From: an uncultured Iamiaceae bacterium
GTDB lineage: Bacteria > Actinomycetota > Acidimicrobiia > Acidimicrobiales > Iamiaceae
DNA length: 64,000 bases
Reading direction: 5' to 3'
NCBI GenBank assembly: GCA_963743955.1
Contig: CAVURR010000014.1
Coordinates: 241,081 to 305,080 of the forward strand
The notes below the pieces were generated by a model, which did no database searches, had not been told where the DNA came from, and worked only from the letters and a program-made list of their open reading frames with translations. Both the position numbers and the translations under genes were made by a program. Below are positions 3,561 through 52,417 of this stretch, one piece after another; the first letter of the stretch is position 1; every line of letters starts with the position of its first letter.

Positions 3561-6115
3561 CTAGGTGGTGGTGAGGGCCACCTGGAGGCGGTAGCCGTCG
3601 GTGGCGATGTTCCGGTTGCCGACGCCGGGGTACTCGCCGGCGGTGAAGCCGTTGGTGATGGTGTCGTTCACGCCGAAGCGCACCGCGGCCTCCGGGCCCT
3701 GGAGGGCGGCCCAGAACTCGTTGTCGGACTCGGCCGAGACCCCGAACGTGTACTCGACGGTGATGGTCTGGGCCGTGGTGCCGGTGAGGAAGGTGGCCCC
3801 GCTGCCGGTGAAGGGGTACTGGTAGGCCGCGTTCGAGCCGGACGGCTCGACCCAGCCGCTGGACAGGCTCGACGGGTTGAAGCTGAAGGCCTGCCACGCC
3901 CCGGTGCCGATGCGGGCCCGCCCGGTCACGGTGGTGATCGAGCCCCGGGCCCGGTCGCCGCCGCCCGTGCCGTCGCCCTTGATGGTGTGGGCGCCGGCGA
4001 TGGAGTGGGCCAGGTCGATGCGCCAGGTGTCGCCGGCGGCGGGCAGCACGTCGAAGGTGACCCGGCCGGCGGCGGTGGCGCTCAGGCTCTCGCTGTCGGT
4101 GGTGCAGCAGGCGTCGGCCCCGACCATGCCCTCGAGGTCGAGCGAGAGCCCGTCGCCGGAGACCTGCTTGCGGACCCGGTGGCGCCACTCCGACACGTCG
4201 GTGACGACGTCCTTGACCGAGTCCCCGCTGCTGAGGTCGGTGAAGGTGGCGTTGGCGATGCGGGTCTGCGGCGCCGGGTCCAGGTCGGCGTAGAGGACGA
4301 AGGCCTCACCCTGGCGGGCGATCTCGCTCACGCTCAGGTCGAGCCCGAGGAAGGACGGCAGGGGGAAGGCACCGAAGCTGCTGCTGAGCCCGCTGACGAA
4401 GTTCGGGAAGAGGCTCGAGAAGACCGCGGCGGTGGCCGCCTCGTCCGCCCCGATGGCGTTGGTGACGACCCGGGTGGTCGACCTCGGACCCCGACGGCGG
4501 GGTGATGGTCGGGGCCAGCTGGCCGGCGGCCGGGTCGAAGGCCATCGACAGCCCGAGCGGGGCCTCGACGCCGAGCGTCAGCATGTCGATCTCGATCGGC
4601 GTGCCGTTGAAGACCGCGTTCTGCACGAAGCTGATGCGGAGGTCGGCCAGCCGCATCTCGGCCGTCGCCCCACCGGGCCCGCTGGGGTCGTCGGTGAGGA
4701 ACGGGGCGAACTGCGGGTCGACCCGGATGAACACGTCGGCGGTGGGGCTGACCTTGGCGAACTGCGGGACGAGGAACGACAGCACCCCGGGGGTCACCGG
4801 CACCACGGTGCCGCCCAGGTCGATCTCGTGCAGCTCCTGGTTGAGCAGCCCGCACTCGGTCATCGACGACAGCAGCTGGTTGAACGCCGAGGTGGAGATC
4901 ACCAGCCCGAGTCCGTAGGGCTGGCCGGACGGCGTGGTGCCACCCAGCGTCGGGTAGGCGCCGGGGACGTGGAAGCTGGACGTGAGGTCCGGGGCGCCGG
5001 CGGCCTGGACGCACTGGCCGGGACCGGTGCCGAAGGTGGCCTGGAAGTCGGCGTCGGCCCGCATGTCGATGGCGGTGGCCGTCTCGTTGATCTGGGTGAA
5101 GGGCGCGTCGAGGCGGGCCTGCACCGCGTCGCCGACCGAGCCGGCGATGGAGATCTGGGCCAGGGCGGTCTCGATGGCGTCGGCGACGGGCGAGTCGGCC
5201 GGGCCGGAGCCGTCGGGGTCGCCCAGCTGGGTCTGGAAGCCGCTGGCGATCTCCTCCTCGATCAGGTCGCCGGCGAGGCTGTTGATGATCGACGCCGAGG
5301 AGGAAGGTGCTCGGGTCGCAGATGCCGGAGATGAACTCGTAGGTGACGCCGGTGAGCGTCACCGCCGGGGTGCCGACCATGTTCACGTCGACGTGGCTGG
5401 CGTCGCCGGGGGCGGGCCGCAGGTCGAAGCGGGCCGCGATCGAGGTGGTCGGGATCTGGAGCTCGAGCTTGCAGGGGCCGTTGAGGAGCGGGCCGCTGAG
5501 CTGGAGGTCGAGGCCGAGGTAGAGGTTGGTGACGGTGATGGGCGTCGACACGCCGGTGGCGGTGCTGCTGGCCCCGACCGACACGCTCTCGGCGCCGCCC
5601 TCGTAGGCGCGCCCGGTCATGGTGTGGCCGAGTGCCACGTCGCTGGGCGGGAGCAGCGGGTCCTGGGCCAGGATCAGCCCGCTGATGTCGAAGGCGCCGC
5701 CGGCCAGGTCGTTGATGACCGGGCCGAGGCCGGCGAGGCCGGCGTTGGTGAAGCGCATGCCGACGCCGTCGGGGGAGTAGGCGCCGTCGTCGACGTGCGG
5801 GCCGTTCACGACCGCGGTCTGCTGGGTGTACTCGGTGCCGTCCGGGGCGGTGTAGGTGGCGAGGACGACGGTGACGTACCCGACCGGGCTGGCCGGGATG
5901 TCGGCCTCCCAGTCGCGGGCGGCGGTGAAGGTGCCGGCCACGCCGTTCACGTCGATGGTGCCGCCGGTGGGGACGTTGTCCGGCAACGTCCCGGTGACGG
6001 TGATGGTGCTCTCGTCGGTGATCGTCCCCGGGAGCGGCGACGTGATCATGGTGACGTCGCACGCCGTGAGGGCGAGCAGGAGCACGGCCGTGAGCGCAAG
6101 GCCCAGTCGCTTCAT
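3561..6115 (-). pseudogene. large secreted lipoprotein (~850 aa), frame changes near 5283 and 4440
   Basis: MKRLGLALTAVLLLALTAC lipobox at 6115. Thr/Gly-rich beta-rich sequence continues in three frames and ends at TAG 3561-3563. No enzymatic motif recognised. Confidence 0.5.
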
Positions 6116-6251: not shown

Positions 6252-8307
6252 TCAGGCCGGGGAGCCGCGGCCCTCGATCACGTCGACGATCGACTCCATG
6301 ATGTCCATGAGGTCGTAGTCGGCCGGCGTGAACACCCGCTCGACGCCCATGGCGGCTCGAGCGTCGGCGACGTCGCCGGCGGGGATGATGCCGCCGACCA
6401 CGACGTGCGACGTCGGCGGCGTCGTGCTTCTCCAGCCCGTCGATGATCTGCTGGGCCAGCTCGAGGTGGCTGCCCGGAGAGGACCGACGCGCCGATCAGG
6501 TCGACGCCCTCCTCGACCGCGGACTGCACGATCTCGGCCGGGCTGAGGCGGATGCCGGAGTAGACGACGTCGAAGCCGACGTGGCGGGCCGACACCGCGA
6601 TGACCTCGGCGCCGTTGGAGTGGCCGTCGAGGCCGGGCTTGCCGACGAGGATGCGCGGGCGGTGGCCCAGGCGCGTCGGCGAGCGCGTCGACCCGGTCGC
6701 GCAGCGGCCTCGACCCGGTCGCCGGTCGAGGCCGAGCTGCTGGCCGTCGACGCCGGTGGCCGGGCGGTACTCGCCGAACACCTCGCGCAGGGCGCCGGCC
6801 CACTCGCCGGTGGTGACCCGGGCGAGGGCGCACTCGATCGACGGCTCCATCATCGACTGCGCCGCTCGCGGGCCGCGTCCTTGAGCGCCGTCGAGCGCGG
6901 CCGCGGCCCGGGCCGGCGTCGCGGGTCGGCGCGGGCCTGCGTCGAGGCCGTCGACCGCGTCGGCGTACGGCCGACGTCGTCGACCTTGAAGATGCCGCCG
7001 TCGTCGCCGCCGAGCAGCGGCGAGGGGATGCCGTCGGTCCACCGGTTGAGGCCGACCACGATCTGCTCGCCGGTGTTGATGCGCGCTCATGCGCTCGCTC
7101 ATCGAGCGCACCAGCGCCGACTTCATGTAGCCGGACTCGATGGCCGGGATGACGCCGCCCATGCCGAGGATGCGTCTCGATCTCGGCCCGCGCCTCGCGC
7201 CTTGAGCTCGTCGACCTTGGACTCGACGACGAGGGAGCCCTCGAACAGGTCGGGGTACTCGAGCAGGTCGGTCTCGTAGGCGAGGATCTGCTGGAGGCGC
7301 AGCGACCACTGCTGGTCCCACGGGCGGGGCAGCGACAGCGCCTCGTTCCACGCCGGCAGCTGGAGCGCGCGGGCCGCGGGCGTCACGGCTCAGGGTGACG
7401 CCGAGGGCCTCGATCAGGATGCGCCAGGCGTTGTTCTCGGGCTGCACCTCGGTGAGGCCCAGCGAGTTGACCTGCACGCCGTAGCGGAAGCGGCGGTACT
7501 TCGGGTCGGTGACGCCGAAGCGGTCGCGGGTGTACTCGTCCCACAGCTCGCCGAAGGCGCGCATCTTGCACATCTCCTCGACGAAGCGGATGCCGGCGTT
7601 CACGAAGAAGGAGATGCGCCCGACGGCCCGCTCGAACTGGTCGTCGTCGAAGTGGCCGCGCTCCTCGAGCAGGTCGAGGAGGCTGATGGCGTTGGCCAGG
7701 GCGAAGGCGAGCTCCTGGGTCGGCGTCGCGCGCCGCCTCCTGCAGGTGGTACGAGCAGATGTTGGAGGCGTTCCAGCGGGGATCTCCTCCAGGCAGAACT
7801 CGTACATCTCGGCGATGATCCGCAGGCTCTGCTCGGGCGGGAAGATGTAGGTCCCGCGGGCCAGGTACTCCTTGATCAGGTCGTTCTGGGTGGTGCCGGT
7901 CAGCTGCGACGATGTCGACGCCGCGCTCGCGGGCCAGGGCGACGTACAGCGCCAGCAGCCACATGGCCGTGCCGTTGATCGTCATCGAGGTGTTCATCTT
8001 CTCGATGGGGATCTCGTCGAACAGCACGTGGAAGTCGTCGAGGCTGTTGATCGGCACGCCGACCTTGCCGACCTCGGGCCGGGCGATCGGGTCGTCGGAG
8101 TCGTAGCCGCACTGGGTGGGCAGGTCGAAGGCGATCGACAGCCCGGTCTGCCCGGCGGCCAGGTTCTTCCGGTAGAGCTCGTTCGACGCCTTCGGGCTGC
8201 GAGTGGCCCGCGTAGGTGCGGATGATCCACGGACGGTCCCGGGTGGGGAGGCCGTCGGCGTCGTAGAGGCGGTGGGCCTCCCGCTCCATGGACGGGTCGT
8301 CGCTCAT
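6252..8307 (-). pseudogene. mutB: methylmalonyl-CoA mutase large subunit with C-terminal B12-binding domain, at least 5 frame changes
   Basis: MSDDPSMEREAHRLYDADGLPTRDRPWIIRTYAGHS at 8307; IPIEKMNTSMTINGTAMWLLALYVALARERG; ELAFALANAISLLDLLEERG; RPRILVGKPGLDGHSNGAEVIAV; HVVVGGIIPAGDVADARAAMGVERVFTP. All are MCM hallmarks but lie in different frames. Confidence 0.75.
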
Positions 8308-8358
8308 GGCAGACAACGGTACGTCCGGGACGGGAGGCCCCCCTAGTCCACGCGCCGG

Positions 8359-9112
8359 GTCAGCGGGCGCCGCGGCCCTTGACCAGGGCGGCACCGCCGG
8401 CGGCCAGGCCGAGGCCGCCCATCACGACGCCGGCCACGGCCAGGCCGTCGGAGCCCCCGTCGTCGCTGTCGGCGTCGGACGACGCGGCCTCGGTGGTGGC
8501 GGTCTCCTCGGCGTCGCCGTCCTCCTCGGTGGCCTCCTCGTCGGCGGCGTCGCGCCGTGGCCGTCGCCCTCGACCTCACCGACGGCGACCACGACCGCCG
8601 GGTGCTCCGGCTCCTCCTCGCCCTCGATCGGGCACCTCGATCCAGGCCGTCTCGGCGGTCGGGCACGACTGCACGATCGGGAACACGAGGTCCTCGCCCG
8701 GCGTCTCGGGGGCCTGGAAGCCGACCGTGAAGACCTGGCGGAACGGCGACGGCAGCTCGTTGCCGGGCTGCGCGGTCCAGGTGATCTCCGAGACCCGCTC
8801 GGTCTGGTGCTCGCCGTGGGCGGTCTCGACCGGCTCGTCGAGCGCGGTGATGGTCGTCTCGGCGTCCCAGCCCGCGACCACCTGGGGAGCGGCGTTGAGG
8901 ATGGCCTCGGGGATGGGGATGGCGATGGCCGTGGTCGGCTCGTCCTCGCAGCCGTGGGGGACGGTGAAGGTGACCTGGGTGTAGGCCCCGGCGGGGACCT
9001 CGCCCTTGTCGCCGCTGATGTGGGCGCCGGCGGGGAGGGCCCCGGCCGCCAGGGCGAGGAGCCCGGCGCCGACGAGGCCGAGGCCGATGCGGTGGGGTGT
9101 GCGGGTGGTCAT
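8359..9112 (-). pseudogene. ycnI: YcnI-like DUF1775 copper-binding protein with C-terminal TM anchor (2 frame changes in the C-terminal third)
   Basis: Signal peptide, then HISGDKGEVPAGAYTQVTFTVPHGCEDEPTTAIAIPIPE (DUF1775 His brace). Acidic linker and anchor GLAVAGVVMGGLGLAAGGAALVKG found in shifted frames. Stop at 8359-8361. Confidence 0.65.
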
Positions 9113-9191
9113 GGGTGTGCTCTCCAGGGTTGGTGTGAGTGGGTGAGAAGGGTGGTGGGTGTGGTCGGTGAGGGGTGGCGGTCGGTGCCGG

Positions 9192-10815
9192 TCAGGCGAC
9201 GATGCGGACCTCGAAGGACGAGGTGAGCTCCTCGAAGCGGGAGGTCCGGGCGGCCACGTCGACGGTCCAGGTGCCGGCGATGGTCATGTCGCTCCCGTCG
9301 ACGACCCAGTGGCCGGGGCCGGCGGCGAGCGGGGTCCGCGCGATCGGGGCCACGTCGGCCGACGGCAGCGACAGGCGCACCGCGACCTCCTCGGCCTCGA
9401 GCAGGGCGCCGTCGGCGTCGTAGAGGAAGAGGTGGCCCTCGGCCTGCCCGGCGCGAGTGGGGTCGATGGTCAGCTCGGCGCGCCCGTCGCCGAGCGGGGC
9501 CTCGTCGGAGAAGGGCGCGGCGACCGCGGCGCGGGCCGGGGTGACGTCGACCAGCACCGCGGTGGCGCCGACCACGGTCAGGAGCACCAGGGCCTCGGCG
9601 GCGAGGGTGCGGCGCAGCACCCGGGTGACCGGCTCGGGGACGGGTCCCCGGCGCGGAGGCGTCGAGGACGGGGACGACGCGGTAGCGGTTGATGCCTCCG
9701 AGGGCGGCGGCGACCCCGACGAGCACCACCTTGGCGATCAGCAGCTGCCCGTAGGTGGTGGTGAGGAGGGCGTCGGCGCTGCGCACCTGGGTCCACCCGA
9801 GGGCGCCCCCGGCGATGCCCACGACGAGCAGGGCGCCGCCGGCGAGGGGGGAGAAGCGGACCACGACCGCCCCCCACGCGCCGGCCTCCCGGCGGCGCGC
9901 GGTGGCCACCGACCAGGCAGCCGACGATGCCGCCGAACCACACCGAGGCCGCGACGACGTGGGCGGCGTCGGCGCCGACCGCGACCAGCCATGGCGAGGT
10001 CGCGGCGGTGTGCCCCGACAGGGCGAGGGCGATCCCCACCGCGATCGCCGCGCCCGCGCTCGACAGCCGGTCGCGGCCCCCGTCGACGACGGCGAACAGC
10101 AGGGCCAGCCCGGCGAGCCCGAGGGTGAGCCCGACCCGGTCGGCCAGGACCTGGCCCAGCACGCCCTCGTCGAGCACCGAGCCCGGTCCGCGGCCGGTGG
10201 CCAGCGCCGCCCGCAGGGGGACCTCGACGAGGAGCCCGAGGGCGGCGAGCCCGGCGGCGACGCGCTGGAGCCGCCGGAGCCGACCGGCCTCGTCGCCTCC
10301 GTCGTGGGCGAAGGCGAGGAACGTCCCCAGGCCCACGGCGAGGAGCAGCCCGAGCAGCCCGACCCCCCGGGCCACCGTCGCCGCGACGCGCCAGGGGCCG
10401 TCATCGCTGCCCACCAGGGCGGCCACCACGGAGTCGTCGAGGGCCCGGGCGCCGGATCCGACGGTGAAGGTCGTCGACCCGTCGATCGGGTGGCTGTCGG
10501 CGGAGACGGCCCGCCAGGCGACGACGAAGGCGCCGTCGTCGAGGGTCGCGAGCTCGATCCTGGCCGTGTGACCGGACACCTCGGGCCGGCCCCGGTCGAC
10601 CCGATCGCCGTCGCTGGTCGAGCACCCGGATGCCATCGAGGCCCATCGAGATGTCCTCGGTGAAGGTCAGCTCCACCTCGCCGGGCGCCTCGTCGAGCCT
10701 CGCCCCGTCGGTGGGCGTCGTCGACACCAGCGACGGCGTGGGCGCCGGCGGGCGCGGCCGGGCCGAGCACCCCGAGCAGGGCGACCGCGGCGATGGCGGT
10801 GAGGGGGACCAGGAC
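9192..10815 (-). pseudogene. ycnJ: CopC-CopD fusion copper transporter (YcnJ-like) with C-terminal CopD-associated domain; frame changes near 10625, 9880 and 9610; 5' boundary uncertain
   Basis: CopC: SLVSTTPTDGARLDEAPGEVELTFTEDISMGLDGIRVLDQ and VAWRAVSADSHPIDGSTTFTVG. CopD: multi-TM segment with SGHTAATSPWLVAV...HVVAASVWFGGIVG and GINRYRVVPVL. A C-terminal domain sits in a third frame. Confidence 0.65.
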
Positions 10816-10866
10816 GGCCGGGCAGCCGTCCGATCCCCGCCCTGGAGCGGCGACGGGTGGGGAGGC

Positions 10867-11510
10867 TCACGACGCGGGGAGGGCTCCGTGGCCGTGGCCG
10901 TGGCCGTGATCGTGGCCGTGGCGGTCGGAGCGCGGCCGCACCTCCACCGCGGCGAGCAGCCCCACGCCGACCAGGTCGAGGACGTGGTGGGCCTCGGCGC
11001 CGGTGCCGGTGCCCCCGCCGACGAGGTCGAGGACGGTGGAGAGGAGGATCGCCGCCGGCGAACGCGAGGGCGAAGGGGAGGAGGCCGCTGGCGAGCCGAG
11101 GCCGCCAGGCGACGCTCAGCAGGCCGACGCCGACGGCCAGCTCGAAGGCCGCCATCTCCCGGGCCATGTGCAGCGACATGCCGGTCGCGTCGCCGGTCAG
11201 GAGGGCGGGGAGGGCGAGGACGACCTGGGTCAGCCCGACCGCGAGCAGGGCGTAGCGGACGCCCTCGCGCACCCGCCGGGGGCGGGCGGAGGCCGGGATC
11301 GAGGCGAGGATGGCGTCGGTGCGGTCGGCCACGAGCGGGAGCGGCCTGGAGCCGGGCCTGCCGGTGCAGCACGACCGCGGAGGCCTCCCACGCCCGGCAG
11401 TCGGCGCACCCGGCGAGGTGGGCGTCGAGGGCGTCGGCGTCGACGCCGGGGGGCAGGGGCTCGCCGTCGAGGCGGGCGGACACGGCCTCACGGGACAGAT
11501 CGCAGCGCAT
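10867..11510 (-). CDS. zf-HC2 anti-sigma factor: cytoplasmic HxxxCxxC domain, one TM, C-terminal His-rich tail (one apparent frameshift near 11340)
   Basis: MRCDLSREAVSARLDGE...HLAGCADCRAWE (RsrA-like zinc motif). TM: VRYALLAVGLTQVVLALPALLTG. Tail translated directly from the DNA ends RPRSDRHGHDHGHGHGHGALPAS before TGA at 10867. Confidence 0.55.
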
Positions 11511-11589
11511 GGGTTGGTGGTCGTCGCGTCGGCCCGTCCGGTTCCCGGGGTGGCCGCGGTTCCGTCCCCGATCCGCGACACTCCTGCGC

Positions 11590-12143
11590 CGTGGACCGGC
11601 TGACCACCCTCGCCCTCGAGGCGCGCGACGGCGACGAGGTGAGCCTCGCCGGGTTCGTGCGGGCGTCGCAGGCCGACGTGTGGCGCCTGGCCGCGCACCT
11701 GGTCGACGCGCAGTCGGCCGACGACGTCACCCAGGAGGTCTACCTGCGGGCCATCCCCGCTCTGGCCCGCTTCCGGGGCGACGCCTCGGCGCGCACGTGG
11801 CTGCTCTCGATCGCCCGCCGGACCTGTGCCGACGTCCTCCGTCGCCGCGGGCGTCAGCGCCGGCTCTGGGCCCGCCTGGTCGCGCAGTCCGACGCGGCCG
11901 GCCCGGCCGTCGTCGCCTCCGACGGGCGAGGTCGAGCTCTCCCACCTCGTGGCGGCGCTCGACCCCGACCGGCGCGAGGCCTTCGTGCTCACGCAGGTGC
12001 TGGGCCTGTCCTACGCGGAGGCGGCCGAGGTCTGCCGGGTGCCGGTCGGGACGATCCGCTCCCGCGTGTCCCGGGCCCGAGCCGACCTCCTGACCGCCGT
12101 CGACCCCGCGGGCGTCGAGGACGCAACCGGCACGTTCGACTGA
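11590..12143 (+). CDS. ECF sigma-70 family sigma factor (one apparent frameshift near 11920)
   Basis: Region 2: [56 protein letters not shown]. Region 4: [44 protein letters not shown]. Divergent from the anti-sigma gene with an 80-bp gap. Confidence 0.7.
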
Positions 12144-12232
12144 CGTTCCGGTCGTCGCGTGGTGACCGGGTGCGCACCCGGCGCGCGGCCTTCCCAGGGT
12201 GCCGTCGGGCGAGGTCGTAGCGTGGGCGCCCC

Positions 12233-13390
12233 ATGTCCCGTCCCCGCCGGTCCCTCTCACCGGTGGCGGTCCAGTGCCTCGTGTACCTGTCGTTCGCCGC
12301 CCCCATCGGGCTGTACGGCGCGGCCTGGCCCGACGCCCGCCATGAGTTCGGGCAGACCGCGGGCGCGCTCGGTGTGGTGGTGACCGCCTACTCGATCGGT
12401 CGCACGTCCACGTCCGCCTCCGCCCTGGCGGTGCTGCGTCGCGTGCCGATCGGGATCGCGACCGCGTTCTGCTGCCTGGTGCTGGCCGCGGCCGACGTCG
12501 TGGTGGCCGTCGGCCGGTCGTTCCCCGTGCTCGTCGCCGCGGTGGGGGTCGTCGGGCTGGTGAGCGGTGGCCTCGACTCGCTCGGCAGCCGGTTCCAGAC
12601 CGTCGTCCGCGACGTCGGTCGCTCGGGCCTGGTGCTGGGCGCCTACGGCGTGGGGGCCACGCTCGCGCCCGGGCTGACCGCGCTCACATCGTGGACCACG
12701 GGGAACCTGCTGGCGGCCGGGGCCGCGGTGGTGGCGGCGATCGCCGCGCTGGGCCGCTCGGTGGCCTGGCCGGACGGGCTCGGCGACGAGCCGGTGCGGT
12801 CAGGCGCAGAGGGTCCCGAGCCGCCGGAGCGGGGCCCCGTCCCCCGGGTCGCCCTCCTGGTCTCGTTGGGCCTGGCCGTCACGTGCGTGGGGGTCGAGGC
12901 GATGACGGGCAACTGGATGGCGACGGTGCTGGAGGACCACCGCGGCGCGTCGGCCCGCCAGGTGGGTCTGGCCATGAGCGGGTTCTGGGCCGGGGTCACG
13001 GTGGGGCGACTGGCGCTGGCGCGGCTCTCGGTGCCACCCCGCCGTCTGCTCGTGGGCGCCTCGACCGCGACCCTCGTCACCGTCGCCCTCCTGGGCGTGG
13101 TGCCCGTCGGGGTCGCTCTGGTCGGCCTGAGCGTGGTGGGCCTGTCGGTCGCGCCTCTGTTCCCGACGGTCGTGTCGACCACCGCCGACCGGGTCGGGGT
13201 GGCGGCCGCGGGGCGCGTCAGCGGCTGGCAGCTCCTCAGCGGGAACGGCTCGATCATCGCCATGACGGCGGTCCTGGGCCTCGCGGTGTCGGTCTGGGGC
13301 GAGGGCGTGCCGTACCTGGTGGTGCTCGCGCTGGCGGCGGCCGCGGCGGTCCTGTGCCGGGTCGCGGTGCGGCTCCCGCCGCGCCGGCGG
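12233..13390 (+). CDS. MFS transporter (3' end uncertain; the ORF runs into the next gene without a stop)
   Basis: 12 predicted hydrophobic helices and Gly/Ala-rich MFS-like sequence from ATG 12233. Confidence 0.55.
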
Positions 13391-13410
13391 AGCCGACGGC
13401 GACGCCACCG

Positions 13411-13831
13411 ATGGTCGGCAACACTTGCCCGATGCCGGGGACCTTCGACCGCGATGACGTCGTCCTCTCCCGGTTGCGGGAGGCGTGCACCGCCCTGCCC
13501 GAGGTGGAGGAGCGGCTTGAGCCACGGCTCCCCGGCCTGGTTCGTGCGGGGCAAGAAGACGTTCGTGATGTTCGTCGACGACCACCACGGCTCGGGGATC
13601 CTCGGCTTCTGGTGCGCGGCGCCGCCCGGCGTCCAGGCCGAGCTGGTCGACACCGAGCCCGAGCGCTTCTTCGTCCCGCCCTACGTGGGCCACCGGGGAT
13701 GGCTCGGCGTGCGCCTCGATCGCGACCCCGACTGGTCCGAGGTCGACGAGATCGTCACCGAGGCGTACTGCTGCGTCGCCCCGAAGACCCTGGTGGGGCA
13801 GGTTCGACCCGACCCTCGAGCGAGTGCTTGA
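13411..13831 (+). CDS. MmcQ/YjbR family DNA-binding protein (one apparent frameshift near 13525)
   Basis: N-term DDVVLSRLREACTALPEVEERLEP in one frame; PAWFVRGKKTFVMFVDDHHGSGILGFW...PPYVGHRGWLGVRLD in the next. The YjbR signature is split. Confidence 0.5.
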
Positions 13832-17815: not shown

Positions 17816-19612
17816 CTACGTGGGGATCGGCCCCGCCTGCTGGCTGGCGACCCGATCGATCAGGTCGGCCTCGGCCATCGGCATCCCGATCAGCCAGCCC
17901 TGGGCGCCGTCGCAGCCGAGGGCCCGCAGCCGGTCGAGCTGGATCTGGTCCTCGACGCCCTCGGCGATGGCGGCCTGTCCGAGGGCGTGGGCCAGGTCGA
18001 TGACGGCGCCCACGATGGCCTCGTCCTCGGCGTCGCGCCCGAGACCGGCCACGAACGAGCGGTCGACCTTGAGCACGTCGACGGGGAACTGCCGCAGGTA
18101 GCGGAGCGACGACCACCCGGTGCCGAAGTCGTCGACGGCGACGCCGACGCCGAGCTCGTGGATCCGCTTGAGGGCGGTGCCGGAGGCCTCGACGTCCATC
18201 AGGTCGGTCTCGGTGATCTCGATGACCAGCGCGCCGTGGGGCAGCCGGGTCTCCTCGAGCACGGCGGCCAGGTCGTCGACCAGCGCGGGCGAGCCCAGCT
18301 GGCGGGCGGAGAGGTTGACGCTCATGGTCATCCCCTCGGACAGCAGCGGCTCGAGGTCGCGGAGCCGCGCCATCGCCCGGCAGGCCGTGGCGGTGATCCA
18401 GTTGCCGATCGGCACGATGAGGCCGGTCTCCTCCGCGATGGGGAGGAACTCGCCCGGGAGGAGGATCCCCCGCTCGGGGTGCTCCCAGCGGACGAGGGAC
18501 TCGGCCCCGATGATGCGGCCGGTCGCGAGGTCGATCTGGGGCTGGTAGGCCACCCGCATCTCGTGGCGGTCGAGGGCGCGGCGCAGCGAGCTCTCCAGGG
18601 CGAGGCGGTCGACGGCCTGGACGTGCATGGCGGCGTCGAACATCTCGGTGCGGCTGCGGCCGCGGGCCTTGGCCTCGTACATCGCCGCGTCGGCGTCGCG
18701 GATGATGGCCTCGGCGACGCCCGAGTCCTCCGAGGTGGCCACGCCGATCGACACCGTGACGGTGACCTCGGTGTCGTCGATGGACACCGGGTCGGCGATG
18801 GCCTCCTCGATGCGGCGGGCGATCTCGAGGGCCTCCTCGCCGCGCTCCAGCTCCTCGCACAGCACGACGAACTCGTCGCCGCCGAAGCGGGCCACGGTGT
18901 CGCCGGGGCGGACGGCGGCCTGCACCCGGCGGGCGACCTCCACCAGCAGGGTGTCGCCGGCGGAGTGGCCGAGGCTGTCGTTGACGACCTTGAAGTTGTC
19001 GAGGTCGAGGAAGAGGACCCCGGTCAGCCGGCCGGTGCGCCCGCCGCGGGCCATCGCCATGTGGAGGCGGTCGACGAGGAGGGTGCGGTTCGGGAGGCCG
19101 GTCAGCGGGTCGTGGGTGGCCTGGTGGGCCAGGCGCTGCTCGAACTCCTTCCGCTCGGTGATGTCGCGGGCGACGACGGCCACGGTCTCGATCTCGCCCC
19201 GGGCGTCGCGCAGGGCGACCATCACCACCGACAGGGGGATCGTCGCCCCGGTCCGATCGTGGAACGAGAGCTCGCCCTCCCACAGGCCCTTGACCTCGAG
19301 GGCGGGGGCGGCCTCGTTCAGGAACCGGTGCCGCACCCACGACGGCGTGCGGGAGAGCAGGGCGTCGAGGTCGGTGGTGGCGTCGGTGGTGTCGGCCGCG
19401 TCGGAGAGGATGCGGGCCGCGGCCGGGTTCATCCGGATGCGGTCGTCGCCCCGGGTCGCGGTGAGGACCAGGTCGGTCGAGGCCTCCAGCGCGAGCGACA
19501 GGCGGGCGTGCTCGGCGTCGGGGCGCGGCCCGATGTGGGCCGAGGGGGTCAGGCCCAGGTCACCGTCGTCCGGGATGTCGCTGGGCACCTGGCGCGCAGG
19601 GGCGCTGACCAT
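17816..19612 (-). CDS. PAS-GGDEF-EAL c-di-GMP turnover protein
   Basis: Intact. RFGGDEFVVL (GGDEF), EAL region with EITETDLM, DDFGTGWSSLRYL, KVDRSFV. Confidence 0.85.
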   Translation of the reverse strand: MVSAPARQVPSDIPDDGDLGLTPSAHIGPRPDAEHARLSLALEASTDLVLTATRGDDRIRMNPAAARILSDAADTTDATTDLDALLSRTPSWVRHRFLNEAAPALEVKGLWEGELSFHDRTGATIPLSVVMVALRDARGEIETVAVVARDITERKEFEQRLAHQATHDPLTGLPNRTLLVDRLHMAMARGGRTGRLTGVLFLDLDNFKVVNDSLGHSAGDTLLVEVARRVQAAVRPGDTVARFGGDEFVVLCEELERGEEALEIARRIEEAIADPVSIDDTEVTVTVSIGVATSEDSGVAEAIIRDADAAMYEAKARGRSRTEMFDAAMHVQAVDRLALESSLRRALDRHEMRVAYQPQIDLATGRIIGAESLVRWEHPERGILLPGEFLPIAEETGLIVPIGNWITATACRAMARLRDLEPLLSEGMTMSVNLSARQLGSPALVDDLAAVLEETRLPHGALVIEITETDLMDVEASGTALKRIHELGVGVAVDDFGTGWSSLRYLRQFPVDVLKVDRSFVAGLGRDAEDEAIVGAVIDLAHALGQAAIAEGVEDQIQLDRLRALGCDGAQGWLIGMPMAEADLIDRVASQQAGPIPT

Positions 19613-51573: not shown

Positions 51574-51793
51574 CGATGCCCCCAGAGGTCGGTCTCCGAT
51601 CGACCGTACGTGACCAGCGCCACACGCGCCGGTCCCGCCCTCAGCCCCCGCCCGCGGGTGGACGCGCGACGTCGTGGCGTCGCCGCACCGGGAACCTCGG
51701 CGTGGGAACGCCGACAGCCCGGTTCCGGGACGTGGCTGCGGTCGCCCGACGAACCACTCGACCCGGGCGAGATGGGTGTGGGAGCCTCAGGGC

Positions 51794-52417
51794 GTGCGCT
51801 TCCTCCGATCGACACCGGTTGCCATCGTCGCCGGCGCGCTGTCGTGGTCATGGGCCGAGTACGGCCTTCACCGGTTCGCCATGCACCAGATGCGCGGCAA
51901 GGGCCTCGCCTCGGTCGAGCACCTCAAGCACCATGGCGACGTCACCTACTTCGCCCCGACGTCGAAGAAGCTCCTCTCCGCGGCCGGCACGACCGTGGTG
52001 GCGTACCCGATCGCGTCCAAGGTCGGCGGTCGTCGGTGGGGCATGGCGTTCACCGGTGGACTCATCGCCACGTACTTCTGGTACGAGGTCGTGCACCGCC
52101 GGCTGCACACGCACCCGCCGACCAACAGGTACGGCCGCTGGGCGCGCCGCAGCCACCTGCACCACCACTTCGGGGCCCCCATGCGCAACCTCGGCGTCAC
52201 GAGCCCCGTCTGGGACCGGGCCTTCGGCACCTACGACGACCCCGGGGTCGTCACCGTCCCCCAACGGATGGCGCCCGTCTGGATGCTCGACGAGCAGGGT
52301 GACGTCCGAGCCGAGCTGGCTGCTGACTACCTCGTCAAGGGCGGTCGAGCCCTCGATCAGAGCCAAGCCGAGCGCGACCACCGAGATGCCTTCGCGAACA
52401 CGGCACCGCTCGTCTGA
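51794..52417 (+). CDS. fatty-acid hydroxylase / sterol desaturase superfamily membrane protein
   Basis: His boxes HRFAMH, HLKHH, HRRLH, HLHHH. Confidence 0.65.
   Translation: MRFLRSTPVAIVAGALSWSWAEYGLHRFAMHQMRGKGLASVEHLKHHGDVTYFAPTSKKLLSAAGTTVVAYPIASKVGGRRWGMAFTGGLIATYFWYEVVHRRLHTHPPTNRYGRWARRSHLHHHFGAPMRNLGVTSPVWDRAFGTYDDPGVVTVPQRMAPVWMLDEQGDVRAELAADYLVKGGRALDQSQAERDHRDAFANTAPLV

What the first reader, a model, noticed from the sequence alone, without database searches (positions are those of the whole stretch)
8359..12143. Copper-uptake module (YcnI, CopC-CopD fusion) headed by a zinc-finger anti-sigma factor with a HGHDHGHGHGHG tail and a divergent ECF sigma factor
On the minus strand the order is anti-sigma (10867-11510), then the CopC-CopD fusion (YcnJ-like), then YcnI (DUF1775). 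The ECF sigma factor is divergent with an 80-bp gap instead of sitting upstream in the same operon as usual. The anti-sigma factor combines an RsrA-like HxxxCxxC cytoplasmic domain, one TM helix and an extracytoplasmic C-terminus that ends in an alternating His-Gly/His-Asp tract. That tract is a plausible Cu/Ni/Zn sensor that could couple periplasmic metal status to sigma release. YcnJ/YcnI are otherwise known from Firmicutes under CsoR/YcnK control. ECF control with a His-tail anti-sigma would be a different regulatory solution.
Basis: partly seen in the sequence, partly recalled or inferred. Interest (0 to 1): 0.6.

Follow-up and report, generated by a model that had tools for sequence, protein, structure and literature searches.

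The report
SigC-type sigma/anti-sigma copper-uptake switch
A copper-import operon (CopC-CopD plus YcnI) in an Iamia-like actinobacterium is headed by a four-helix membrane anti-sigma factor and preceded by a conserved SigC-type promoter, while the striking His-Gly tail is a local, repeat-encoded, probably cytoplasmic appendage and not the family's conserved sensor.

Summary
The genes, their order, the 80-bp divergent gap, the HxxxCxxC motif and the HGHDHGHGHGHG tail are all present. However, each of the four genes reads through only after frame corrections, at least 10 breaks in 3.8 kb. The neighbouring mutase gene is broken in the same way, so this looks like sequence quality.

The sigma factor is SigC-like (ECF36-like). 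The anti-sigma gene sits 9 nt behind GGGAAC-N17-CGAC, which matches the published C. glutamicum sigma-C consensus. This motif has the same spacer and position in 22 of 25 related loci. The layout of divergent sigma, then anti-sigma, then CopCD recurs across Acidimicrobiia (sigma 19/19, CopCD 18/19). Three relatives fuse the anti-sigma factor and CopC-CopD into one protein. ECF control of copper uptake is therefore well supported.

The proposed sensor is not supported. The anti-sigma factor has four membrane helices, not one, which places the tail in the cytoplasm. The tail is encoded by a hexanucleotide repeat, varies in length, and occurs only in the five closest relatives. What is invariant across 222 family members is a Cys-His-Cys-Cys zinc site plus His114/Asp161/Glu172/His175 at the outer ends of helices 2 to 4. 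That cluster is my candidate sensor (inference).

Verdict: a new variant of a known kind, and a candidate for the anti-SigC factor still unidentified in M. tuberculosis.

The parts
11591..12143 (+). ECF sigma factor, SigC-like (ECF36-like). About 184 aa after one frame correction near 11880-11900.
   Evidence: Pfam gives Sigma70_r2 + Sigma70_r4_2. The best NCBIfam hits are PRK12535 (171 bits) and SigC PRK09649 (154 bits), against 79 bits or less for all other ECF models; both are below the equivalog cut-offs. The best PDB matches are M. tuberculosis SigC sigma2 (2o7g, 4e-22) and sigma4 (2o8x, 5e-16). tblastn shows two frames.
11511..11590 (.). 80-bp divergent intergenic region that carries both promoters.
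   Evidence: The corresponding gap in relatives is 54-268 bp, most commonly 54-56 bp.
11520..11546 (-). Sigma-C-type ECF promoter. -35 GGGAAC at 11546-11541, 17-nt spacer, -10 CGAC at 11523-11520, ending 9 nt before the anti-sigma ATG. This predicts a leaderless or near-leaderless transcript.
   Evidence: One search is the window match. Searches show the same motif, an invariant 17-nt spacer and 8-10 nt to the start codon in 22 of 25 related loci. It matches the C. glutamicum sigma-C consensus GGGAACT/CGACTA as quoted in PMC5483222.
11599..11604 (+). Coordinates run 11577-11582 on the plus strand; see the evidence field. GACACT, a housekeeping-type -10-like hexamer 8 nt upstream of the sigma GTG.
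   Evidence: The correct coordinates are 11577-11582 (+), the sequence ...ccgcGACACTcctgcgccGTG. A cAnnnT element lies 6-8 nt before the sigma start codon in most loci, and no GGGAAC/CGAC motif is present on that strand. I infer that the sigma gene is leaderless and not autoregulated.
10867..11510 (-). Membrane anti-sigma factor, about 213 aa after two single-base frame corrections near 11340 and 11056. It has a cytoplasmic zinc-binding anti-sigma domain (Cys3, His31, Cys35, Cys38), four TM helices and a disordered cytoplasmic tail.
   Evidence: Pfam zf-HC2. Homologues of about 205 aa align end to end at 81-90% identity. The profile matches the RsiW anti-sigma domain 5wuq_C (3e-5). AF2 model. 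Conservation over 222 sequences.
10885..10920 (-). HGHDHGHGHGHG tract within a hexanucleotide (CACGGC) tandem repeat.
   Evidence: TRF reports 10886-10922, period 6, 6.2 copies. The tract is present only in P0001-P0005 and varies in length.
9192..10870 (-). YcnJ-like copper importer, about 560 aa after about 5 frame corrections. It has a signal peptide, a CopC domain (mature N-terminal His, DSH motif), a CopD membrane domain and a C-terminal beta-rich domain. Its start overlaps the anti-sigma stop (GTGA).
   Evidence: Pfam CopC 1e-24 and CopD 7e-20. The best PDB match is the B. subtilis YcnJ CopC domain 9c14, with His1 and D-x-H aligned. tblastn frames are.
8360..9112 (-). YcnI (DUF1775) with a signal peptide, a mature N-terminal His, an acidic linker and a C-terminal TM anchor. 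Two compensating frame breaks lie near 8640 and 8565.
   Evidence: Pfam DUF1775 1e-38. PDB 3esm aligns with the N-terminal His.

Best explanation
This is a SigC-family (ECF36-like) sigma/anti-sigma switch that governs copper acquisition.

The sigma gene is transcribed divergently, probably from a housekeeping-type promoter, and is not autoregulated. The sigma protein is held at the membrane by the zinc-bound N-terminal domain of a four-helix membrane anti-sigma factor.

When released, the sigma factor uses the GGGAAC-N17-CGAC promoter to transcribe a leaderless operon. That operon encodes the anti-sigma factor itself (negative feedback), the CopC-CopD importer (coupled by a GTGA overlap) and the Cu(II)-binding YcnI.

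The likely inducing condition is copper scarcity, as for SigC in M. tuberculosis and sigma-C in C. glutamicum. The most likely signal-perceiving part is the conserved membrane domain, whose invariant His114, Asp161, Glu172 and His175 lie at the outer ends of helices 2-4. It is not the His-Gly tail, which is a lineage-specific, repeat-encoded cytoplasmic appendage.

Shown: gene content, synteny, promoter conservation, family-wide conservation pattern, and predicted topology.
Inferred: sigma/anti-sigma binding, leaderless transcription, copper limitation as the signal, and the H/D/E/H cluster as a metal site.
For: - Domain assignments.
- The sigma factor is closest to M. tuberculosis SigC in both NCBIfam and PDB searches.
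- The anti-sigma N-terminus matches the RsiW anti-sigma domain, and C3/H31/C35/C38 are 96-100% conserved in 222 sequences.
- Synteny: the sigma gene is divergent in 19/19 loci and CopCD is downstream in 18/19. The His-tail clade contigs show the same layout, as do the more distant L021-L023.
- The promoter GGGAAC-N17-CGAC lies 8-10 nt before the anti-sigma start in the window and in 22 of 25 related loci. There is roughly one hit per 12-kb locus.
- In L021 a second copy sits in front of DUF1775-SCO1-PCuAC, where 0.06 hits are expected by chance.
- The motif equals the published C. glutamicum sigma-C consensus (PMC5483222).
- Fusion proteins zf-HC2-4TM-CopC-CopD exist: P0207, P0222 and P0240.
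- The four-TM, N-in/C-in topology is supported.
- H114, P137, D161, E172 and H175 are 97-100% conserved, including in members without an adjacent CopCD.
- The copper ligands of CopC (His1, DxH) and YcnI (N-terminal His) are retained.
- Literature: SigC prevents copper starvation in M. tuberculosis, is not autoregulated, and has no known anti-sigma factor (PMC7924339). The sigma-C regulon of C. glutamicum is activated by copper deprivation (PMC7337898). YcnJ/YcnI support growth under copper limitation (PMC13344008).
Against: - There is no expression or binding data for this organism.
- The sigma factor scores below the NCBIfam equivalog cut-offs for SigC (154 vs 219 bits).
Their position near the outer helix ends is read from the secondary-structure boundaries.
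- Helices 2 and 4 are only moderately hydrophobic (19-residue KD maxima of about 1.25-1.3).
- The H/D/E/H residues are also kept in family members with no adjacent CopCD (L004, L024, L025). They might therefore sense something other than copper, or be structural.
- In C. glutamicum the suggested sigma-C stimulus is a defective aa3 oxidase rather than copper itself.
- All four genes carry frame breaks in this window, so in this particular sequence they are either mis-sequenced or non-functional.
Confidence: 0.62

Rival explanations
1. One reading: a single-pass anti-sigma factor whose extracytoplasmic His-Gly/His-Asp tail binds Cu/Ni/Zn and couples periplasmic metal status to sigma release.
For: The tract exists, is in frame with the last helix, and partly recurs in the five closest relatives. 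Alternating His-Gly is chemically able to bind metals (general knowledge).
Against: Four helices are predicted, with basic residues before TM1, between TM2 and TM3, and after TM4. This places the tail in the cytoplasm. The tail is absent from more than 95% of family members, varies in length (2-6 His) among close relatives, and is encoded by a slippage-prone 6-bp repeat. The rest of the system, including the promoter and synteny, is conserved without it.
Confidence: 0.04
2. The tail is a cytoplasmic, clade-specific accessory metal site (Zn, Ni or Cu). It tunes anti-sigma stability or activity according to internal metal status, on top of the conserved mechanism.
For: The location is predicted to be cytoplasmic and adjacent to the membrane. 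Some His is retained in all five closest relatives. His-rich cytoplasmic tails bind metals in other proteins (general knowledge).
Against: Length and sequence are poorly conserved even within the clade. The region is predicted to be disordered (pLDDT about 50). A repeat origin suggests neutral expansion. The window has many indel errors, so the copy number itself is uncertain.
Confidence: 0.15
3. The anti-sigma factor does not sense copper directly. The sigma factor is released in response to a downstream consequence, such as defective haem-copper oxidase or altered electron flow. Possible routes are oxidation or metal exchange at the zinc-thiolate site, or regulated intramembrane proteolysis of the membrane domain.
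For: [quoted passage not shown] The CHCC zinc site is invariant. A conserved Pro101 in TM1 (93%) would suit a site-2 protease substrate (inference). Some family members lack an adjacent CopCD but keep all conserved residues. Relatives' operons carry Sco, PCuAC, Caa3_CtaG, DsbB/VKOR and TlpA-like genes, which are oxidase-assembly functions.
Against: It does not explain why four polar metal-ligand-type residues at the outer membrane face are invariant. It also does not explain why the anti-sigma factor is repeatedly fused or translationally coupled to the Cu(II)-binding CopC-CopD.
Confidence: 0.25
4. The module is a copper-resistance (excess) response rather than an uptake response: the sigma factor is activated by high copper.
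For: CopC and CopD were first named as copper resistance proteins, and NCBIfam calls them copper homeostasis proteins.
Against: CopD and YcnJ are now regarded as importers needed under copper limitation (PMC8424229; PMC13344008). The CopC domain is of the YcnJ type, with a Cu(II) site only. SigC-family regulons respond to copper starvation. The operons carry no efflux ATPase, multicopper oxidase or CsoR.
Confidence: 0.07
5. The locus is a decayed, non-functional pseudogene cluster in this organism.
For: There are at least 10 frame disruptions across the four genes.
Against: The neighbouring housekeeping methylmalonyl-CoA mutase shows the same pattern. Within each frame segment GC3 stays at 0.9-1.0, and identity to intact relatives is 81-93%. 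No premature loss of motifs or ligands is seen. The two anti-sigma breaks are each explained by one extra base. The pattern fits indel-prone sequencing or assembly.
Confidence: 0.08

Closest known systems
Mycobacterium tuberculosis SigC (Rv2069; ECF36)
   Same: It is the closest solved and curated relative of the window sigma factor. It governs copper acquisition under copper limitation. Its gene is monocistronic and not autoregulated (PMC7924339), as inferred here for the divergent sigma gene.
   Different: No anti-SigC factor is known in M. tuberculosis. Regulation has been proposed to work through intramolecular occlusion or an N-terminal extension (PMC7826278, PMC8999054). Its targets are ctpB and the nrp operon, not copCD-ycnI. 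Here a cognate-looking membrane anti-sigma factor lies next door.
Corynebacterium glutamicum sigma-C (cg0309)
   Same: The promoter consensus -35 GGGAACT / -10 CGACTA (Toyoda & Inui 2016, as quoted in PMC5483222) equals the motif found here. Its regulon is activated by copper deprivation (PMC7337898).
   Different: Its known regulon centres on cydABDC and haem a/oxidase genes. No adjacent anti-sigma factor is described in the papers read here. The sigC gene is repressed by HrrA.
Bacillus subtilis ycnKJI copper-uptake operon
   Same: The effector proteins are the same. YcnJ is CopC-CopD plus a C-terminal domain, and YcnI is DUF1775 with a TM anchor. The Cu(II) ligands are conserved (PMC13344008, PMC8424229).
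   Different: It is regulated by the repressors YcnK and CsoR, which sense cytoplasmic Cu(I). It is not regulated by an ECF sigma/anti-sigma pair.
Class I zinc-binding anti-sigma factors (RsiW of B. subtilis, RsrA of Streptomyces, RslA of M. tuberculosis)
   Same: They share an N-terminal anti-sigma domain with a Cys/His-x3-Cys-x2-Cys zinc site. The family profile matches the RsiW ASD (5wuq_C).
   Different: RsrA is soluble and senses thiol oxidation. RsiW and RslA are single-pass with an extracytoplasmic domain and are removed by proteolysis. Here a compact four-TM bundle with almost no extracytoplasmic loops replaces that domain. It has no Pfam model and no specific structural homologue.
Metal-responsive ECF systems: CnrYXH (Cupriavidus), CorE (Myxococcus), SigF-NrsF (Caulobacter)
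   Same: ECF sigma activity is tied to metal status. NrsF is likewise a multi-pass membrane anti-sigma factor (own knowledge). CorE is the copper ECF usually cited (PMC10141476).
   Different: CnrX is a separate periplasmic sensor. CorE binds copper itself through a Cys-rich C-terminal extension and responds to excess. NrsF uses periplasmic Cys residues and lacks a zinc-finger ASD. None of them controls CopCD/YcnI.

Membership tests
ECF (group IV) sigma factor | Sigma2 and sigma4 domains only, about 170-200 aa. | tested here: met
   Pfam gives Sigma70_r2 (3e-14) and Sigma70_r4_2 (2e-16), with nothing between them. The stitched product is about 184 aa.
SigC / ECF36 group | Sequence membership, meaning closest to SigC models and above the curated cut-off. 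| tested here: inconclusive
   The best two NCBIfam hits are PRK12535 (171 bits) and SigC PRK09649 (154 bits), twice the score of any other ECF model but below the equivalog cut-offs of 290 and 219. The best PDB hits are the M. tuberculosis SigC domains. The ECF Hub group HMMs were not available.
SigC / ECF36 group | Target promoter of the sigma-C type (-35 GGGAAC, -10 CGAC). | tested here: met
   GGGAAC-N17-CGAC at 11546-11520, conserved in 22 of 25 related loci. The consensus is quoted in PMC5483222. That this sigma factor actually uses it is inferred.
Class I zinc-binding anti-sigma factor (ZAS) | H-x3-C-x2-C plus a fourth upstream ligand in an N-terminal helical anti-sigma domain. | tested here: met
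   C3, H31, C35 and C38 are 96-100% conserved. Pfam zf-HC2. AF2 predicts helices 3-14, 25-34 and 36-52 at pLDDT 94-98. The profile hits the RsiW ASD.
Class I zinc-binding anti-sigma factor (ZAS) | Physical binding and inhibition of the cognate sigma factor. | not testable with these tools
   Only adjacency and co-conservation were observed.
   Four membrane helices are predicted.
   Four helices are predicted. The K/R distribution places the N-terminus, the TM2-TM3 turn and the tail inside. No experimental topology is available.
His-rich tail as a family-defining sensor | Conservation of the His tract across homologues that share the copCD context. | tested here: not met
   Only 8 of 256 homologues have 3 or more His in the last 25 residues. 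The HG type occurs only in P0001-P0005. Loci without the tail keep the sigma gene, the promoter and CopCD.
YcnJ-type copper importer | CopC domain with a Cu(II) site (mature N-terminal His, D-x-H) fused to a CopD membrane domain. | tested here: met
   Pfam CopC and CopD. The alignment to YcnJ CopC (9c14) shows HAS.../HAY... and SADSHP/SADGHP. A GH(T) motif is present in CopD (direct reading).
YcnJ-type copper importer | C-terminal YtkA-like domain. | tested here: inconclusive
   The 106-aa C-terminal segment has no Pfam hit at E<=0.01. Relatives show faint YtkA or weak FixH hits in the same position.
YcnI / DUF1775 | DUF1775 domain starting with the conserved His after the signal peptide, plus a C-terminal TM anchor. 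| tested here: met
   Pfam 1e-38 over the full model. AGA|HISGD aligns with the N-terminus of 3esm. A C-terminal hydrophobic segment LAVAGVVMGGLGLAAGGAAL is present.

The most novel reading that the evidence does not exclude
The four-helix membrane domain of this anti-sigma family is itself a copper sensor. The invariant His114/Asp161/Glu172/His175 cluster at the outer membrane face would bind Cu(II), possibly handed over from the co-translated or fused CopC/YcnI. Loss of that copper would release the SigC-type sigma factor. This would identify the missing class of anti-SigC factors and give a direct molecular answer to how actinobacteria sense copper deficiency, a question stated as open for M. 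tuberculosis in PMC7924339.
Probability: 0.3. Interest if true: 0.75.

Novelty: new variant of a known kind. Interest (0 to 1): 0.5.

Why it matters
Sensing of copper excess is well understood (CsoR, CueR, CopRS, CorE). Sensing of copper scarcity is not. SigC-family sigma factors switch on copper acquisition in M. tuberculosis and respond to copper deprivation in C. glutamicum. In the papers read here, however, no anti-sigma factor or sensor is known for SigC.

This locus and its relatives show a SigC-like sigma factor paired with a distinct, uncharacterised anti-sigma family. The family has 542 representatives at E<=1e-30, and Pfam has no model for its membrane domain. It sits at the head of, and is sometimes fused to, the CopC-CopD/YcnI importer, behind a sigma-C-type promoter.

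That yields a compact and testable circuit: a constitutively expressed sigma gene, an inducible anti-sigma factor, and an importer. It also yields four specific residues to mutate.

For this window in particular, the finding warns that the most eye-catching feature, the His-Gly tail, is the least conserved part of the system. It also shows that the underlying sequence is riddled with frame errors.

Tried and rejected
- Reading the listed ORFs at face value. Rejected because the 369-aa and 441-aa ORFs at 10401-11992 are high-GC read-through artefacts. Stitching by GC3 and homology was needed.
- Supplementary tables of the ECF reclassification paper, to obtain the ECF36 description. They are not held. 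Morosov et al. 2018 (PMC6177595) is not held either.
- Pfam at E<=1 on 28 family members, looking for a membrane-domain model such as DUF2275. Only zf-HC2 matched.
- Cluster look-up to learn the taxa of distant family members. All are unnamed metagenome proteins.
- N-terminally extended family members (P0156, P0202, P0233, P0236, P0257) tested as possible sigma/anti-sigma fusions. None has a sigma domain, so they are probably over-extended gene calls.
- Other promoter matches in the window. The match at 18084 is antisense inside a gene. The match at 51690 has a 16-nt spacer and lies about 60 nt upstream of a fatty-acid-hydroxylase-family gene. Together they are no more than chance predicts (1.1 expected).
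- Consensus sigma-70 promoter and terminator scan of 8100-12400. It found nothing, as expected at 75% GC.
- A coarse whole-window count of GC3 phase segments as a measure of frameshift density. It was too insensitive to separate this window from intact loci. The claim that frame errors extend beyond the module rests on the mutase gene only.
- DNA of the closest relatives, for a base-level indel map. It was not retrievable.

Full report
**Observation**

The window has about 75% G+C. At that composition long spurious ORFs cover every frame. I therefore located the real genes using third-position GC, three-frame translation and tblastn with intact homologues.

On the minus strand the genes are:
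- An anti-sigma gene, ATG 11510 to TGA 10869-10867.
- A CopC-CopD gene whose GTG (10870-10868) overlaps that stop codon as GTGA. It ends at 9192.
- A DUF1775/YcnI gene, 9112 to 8360.

A sigma gene runs divergently from GTG 11591 to 12143, leaving an 80-bp gap. Pfam assigns zf-HC2, Sigma70_r2 + r4_2, CopC + CopD, and DUF1775.

- The anti-sigma gene changes frame twice, near 11340 and 11056. One extra base explains each change.
- The sigma gene changes frame once, near 11880-11900.
- copCD changes frame about five times.
- ycnI changes frame twice.

The adjacent methylmalonyl-CoA mutase (6252-8394) is fragmented in the same way. The syntenic Iamiaceae locus L001 has all of these genes intact. 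Within each frame segment GC3 stays at 0.9-1.0, and identity to relatives is 81-93%. I therefore read the breaks as indel errors in the sequence rather than decay of this locus. Only the reads can settle that.

**The His tract is real but marginal**

The tail RPRSDRHGHDHGHGHGHGALPAS follows the last membrane helix with no frame change. The five closest database relatives (81-90% identical, about 206-217 aa) end in the same ...HGHGALPAS-type sequence.

Three observations reduce the tract's importance:
- It coincides with a 6-bp tandem repeat (10886-10922, 6.2 copies).
- Its length differs in each of the five relatives.
- Only 8 of 256 family proteins have three or more His in their last 25 residues.

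**Architecture of the anti-sigma factor**

An AlphaFold2 model built on 28 sequences (mean pLDDT 82) gives:
- A three-helix N-terminal domain (residues 3-52, pLDDT 94-98).
- Four long helices at 82-105, 113-135, 137-165 and 171-190.
- A disordered tail (pLDDT about 50).

The sigma-binding N-terminus must be cytoplasmic, so the tail is predicted to be cytoplasmic as well.

**What is conserved**

In an alignment of 222 family members, most under 50% identical to one another, two sets of residues stand out:
- Cys3, His31, Cys35 and Cys38. This is the classical zinc site of class I anti-sigma domains. The family profile also matches the RsiW anti-sigma domain in PDB (5wuq_C, 3e-5).
- In the membrane part, His114 (100%), Pro137 (100%), Asp161 (97%), Glu172 (98%) and His175 (100%).

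By the helix boundaries, the four polar residues lie within one to one and a half turns of the outer ends of helices 2, 3 and 4. They are retained even in members without an adjacent CopCD. No Pfam model covers this domain. The family is large: 542 representatives at E<=1e-30 and 1612 at E<=1e-10.

**The sigma factor**

Its best NCBIfam matches are PRK12535 (171 bits) and M. tuberculosis-type SigC PRK09649 (154 bits). No other ECF model exceeds 79 bits, but both top hits fall below the equivalog cut-offs. The best PDB matches are the two solved domains of M. tuberculosis SigC (2o7g at 4e-22 and 2o8x at 5e-16). I call it SigC-like, or ECF36-like. Formal group membership was not testable here.

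**Conservation of context**

A scan of one genome per species returned 20 loci, all from Acidimicrobiia MAGs (Iamiaceae, Microthrixaceae and others).
- The sigma gene is divergent in all 19 loci that have room upstream.
- CopCD follows the anti-sigma gene in 18 of the 19 loci that have room downstream. L004 is the exception.
- YcnI follows CopCD in five loci.
- Elsewhere CopCD is followed by DsbB-like plus TlpA-like redoxin genes, or by an unassigned 340-aa protein.

Contigs of the His-tail clade show the same layout, including a 4-nt overlap between the anti-sigma gene and the next gene.

More distant members gave these arrangements:
- Divergent sigma, anti-sigma, DUF1775, CopCD (L022).
- Anti-sigma, CopCD-YtkA, SCO1, PCuAC, Caa3_CtaG, DsbA, VKOR (L023).
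- Two loci without CopCD, one of which has a conventional co-directional sigma/anti-sigma pair (L024, L025).

Three representatives are single polypeptides combining zf-HC2, 4TM, CopC and CopD. One of these (L021) has the divergent sigma gene and is followed by DUF1775, SCO1 and PCuAC.

**Promoters**

Directly upstream of the anti-sigma start the window carries GGGAAC-N17-CGAC (11546-11520), ending 9 nt before the ATG. The same motif occurs in 22 of 25 related loci, with an invariant 17-nt spacer and 8-10 nt to the start codon. This includes L023, which has no adjacent sigma gene. It typically occurs only once per 12-kb locus. In L021 a second copy precedes DUF1775-SCO1-PCuAC, where 0.06 matches are expected by chance.

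The motif equals the sigma-C consensus of C. glutamicum (-35 GGGAACT, -10 CGACTA; Toyoda & Inui 2016 as quoted in PMC5483222). The 8-10 nt distance implies a leaderless or near-leaderless mRNA (inference).

On the sigma side there is no such motif. Instead, a cAnnnT element lies 6-8 nt before the start codon (GACACT in the window) in most loci. This suggests a leaderless, housekeeping-type, non-autoregulated sigma gene. M. tuberculosis sigC is likewise reported as not autoregulatory (PMC7924339). In the short 54-56-bp versions of the gap the two promoters must overlap back to back.

**Effectors**

The CopC domain aligns best with the solved CopC domain of B. subtilis YcnJ (9c14). The mature N-terminal His and the D-x-H motif are both preserved. 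YcnI keeps the N-terminal His that forms the Cu(II) site in B. subtilis YcnI (PMC8424229).

YcnJ and YcnI support growth and haem-copper oxidase function under copper limitation (PMC13344008). The Sco, PCuAC and CtaG genes in relatives' operons point the same way.

**Mechanism proposed**

A constitutively expressed SigC-like sigma factor is sequestered by the zinc-bound domain of the membrane anti-sigma factor. On the signal it is released and transcribes anti-sigma-copCD-ycnI. Copper uptake rises, and newly made anti-sigma factor recaptures the sigma factor, which gives pure negative feedback.

By analogy with SigC in M. tuberculosis (copper starvation, PMC7924339) and sigma-C in C. glutamicum (regulon activated by copper deprivation, PMC7337898), the signal is probably copper scarcity. 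The family-wide candidate for perception is the His/Asp/Glu/His cluster at the outer face of the four-helix bundle. The repeated coupling or fusion to the Cu(II)-binding CopC fits a hand-over or occupancy-sensing model.

These last steps are inference. An indirect signal (oxidase defect, redox change, intramembrane proteolysis) remains a serious rival. The His tail, if it does anything, is a clade-specific cytoplasmic modifier.

**Comparison and novelty**

ECF/ZAS pairs, the link between SigC and copper, and YcnJ/YcnI are each known. In the literature I could search, the only copper ECF usually listed is CorE (PMC10141476). SigC is described as lacking an anti-sigma factor (PMC7924339, PMC8999054). 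No paper combines DUF1775 with sigma/anti-sigma terms.

The ECF reclassification implies that ECF36 subgroups other than s4 do have anti-sigma factors. A review mentions 3-4-TM extensions fused to some ECF36 members. The pairing is therefore probably already catalogued computationally, but I could not read the supplement.

I rate this a new variant of a known kind. It is of moderate interest as a testable candidate for the missing anti-SigC/copper-scarcity sensor. It is of low interest with respect to the His-tail idea that motivated the finding.

Noticed in passing
window 6252-8394 (minus strand) and generally: The methylmalonyl-CoA mutase next to the module is split over at least five reading frames, just like the four module genes. 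The syntenic locus L001 has intact ORFs. The window sequence appears to carry frequent single-base indels, so any ORF-based reading elsewhere in it needs frame correction.
   Followed up: partly
window 51690-51715 (+), upstream of ORF 51674..52417 (+): A second sigma-C-like match, GGGAAC-N16-CGAC, lies about 60 nt upstream of a fatty-acid-hydroxylase-family membrane protein (Pfam FA_hydroxylase, 3e-16). The spacer is one base shorter than in the conserved promoter, and the number of matches in the window is within chance expectation.
   Followed up: partly
L007 8424-9485, L011 8296-9312, L015 8274-9293, L019 8254-9297: In Microthrixaceae-type loci CopCD is followed by a conserved protein of about 340 aa instead of YcnI. 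It has a signal peptide, an AWHDHRVHWM motif, several C-terminal membrane helices and an acidic end, and it has no Pfam match. It may be an uncharacterised copper-handling partner.
   Followed up: partly
P0207, P0222, P0240; L021 2517-5066: The anti-sigma factor (zf-HC2 + 4 TM) and CopC-CopD occur as one polypeptide of 787-849 aa in three unrelated metagenome representatives. In L021 a second GGGAAC-N17-CGAC promoter (5104-5130) precedes DUF1775-SCO1-PCuAC.
   Followed up: partly
L009 8458-9060, L013 9150-9785, L018 9068-9814, L023 7882-9172: Other lineages extend the operon with DsbB-like or VKOR genes and TlpA/DsbA-like thioredoxin-fold (CPHC) genes, and with Caa3_CtaG. This links the regulon to assembly of haem-copper oxidase centres rather than to copper detoxification.
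   Followed up: partly
window 11511-11590 and the 54-56-bp gaps of L007-L020: The sigma-C-type promoter of the anti-sigma operon and the -10-like element of the sigma gene lie back to back within 54-80 bp. RNA polymerase bound at one may therefore occlude the other, which could add a further regulatory layer.
   Followed up: no
window 12233-13831 (+): The long ORF downstream of the sigma gene looks like an MFS-type membrane protein run together with a small soluble C-terminal part (...FVMFVDDHHGSGILGFWC...VGHRGWLGVRLD...). It is probably two genes merged by the same kind of frame or stop error.
   Followed up: no
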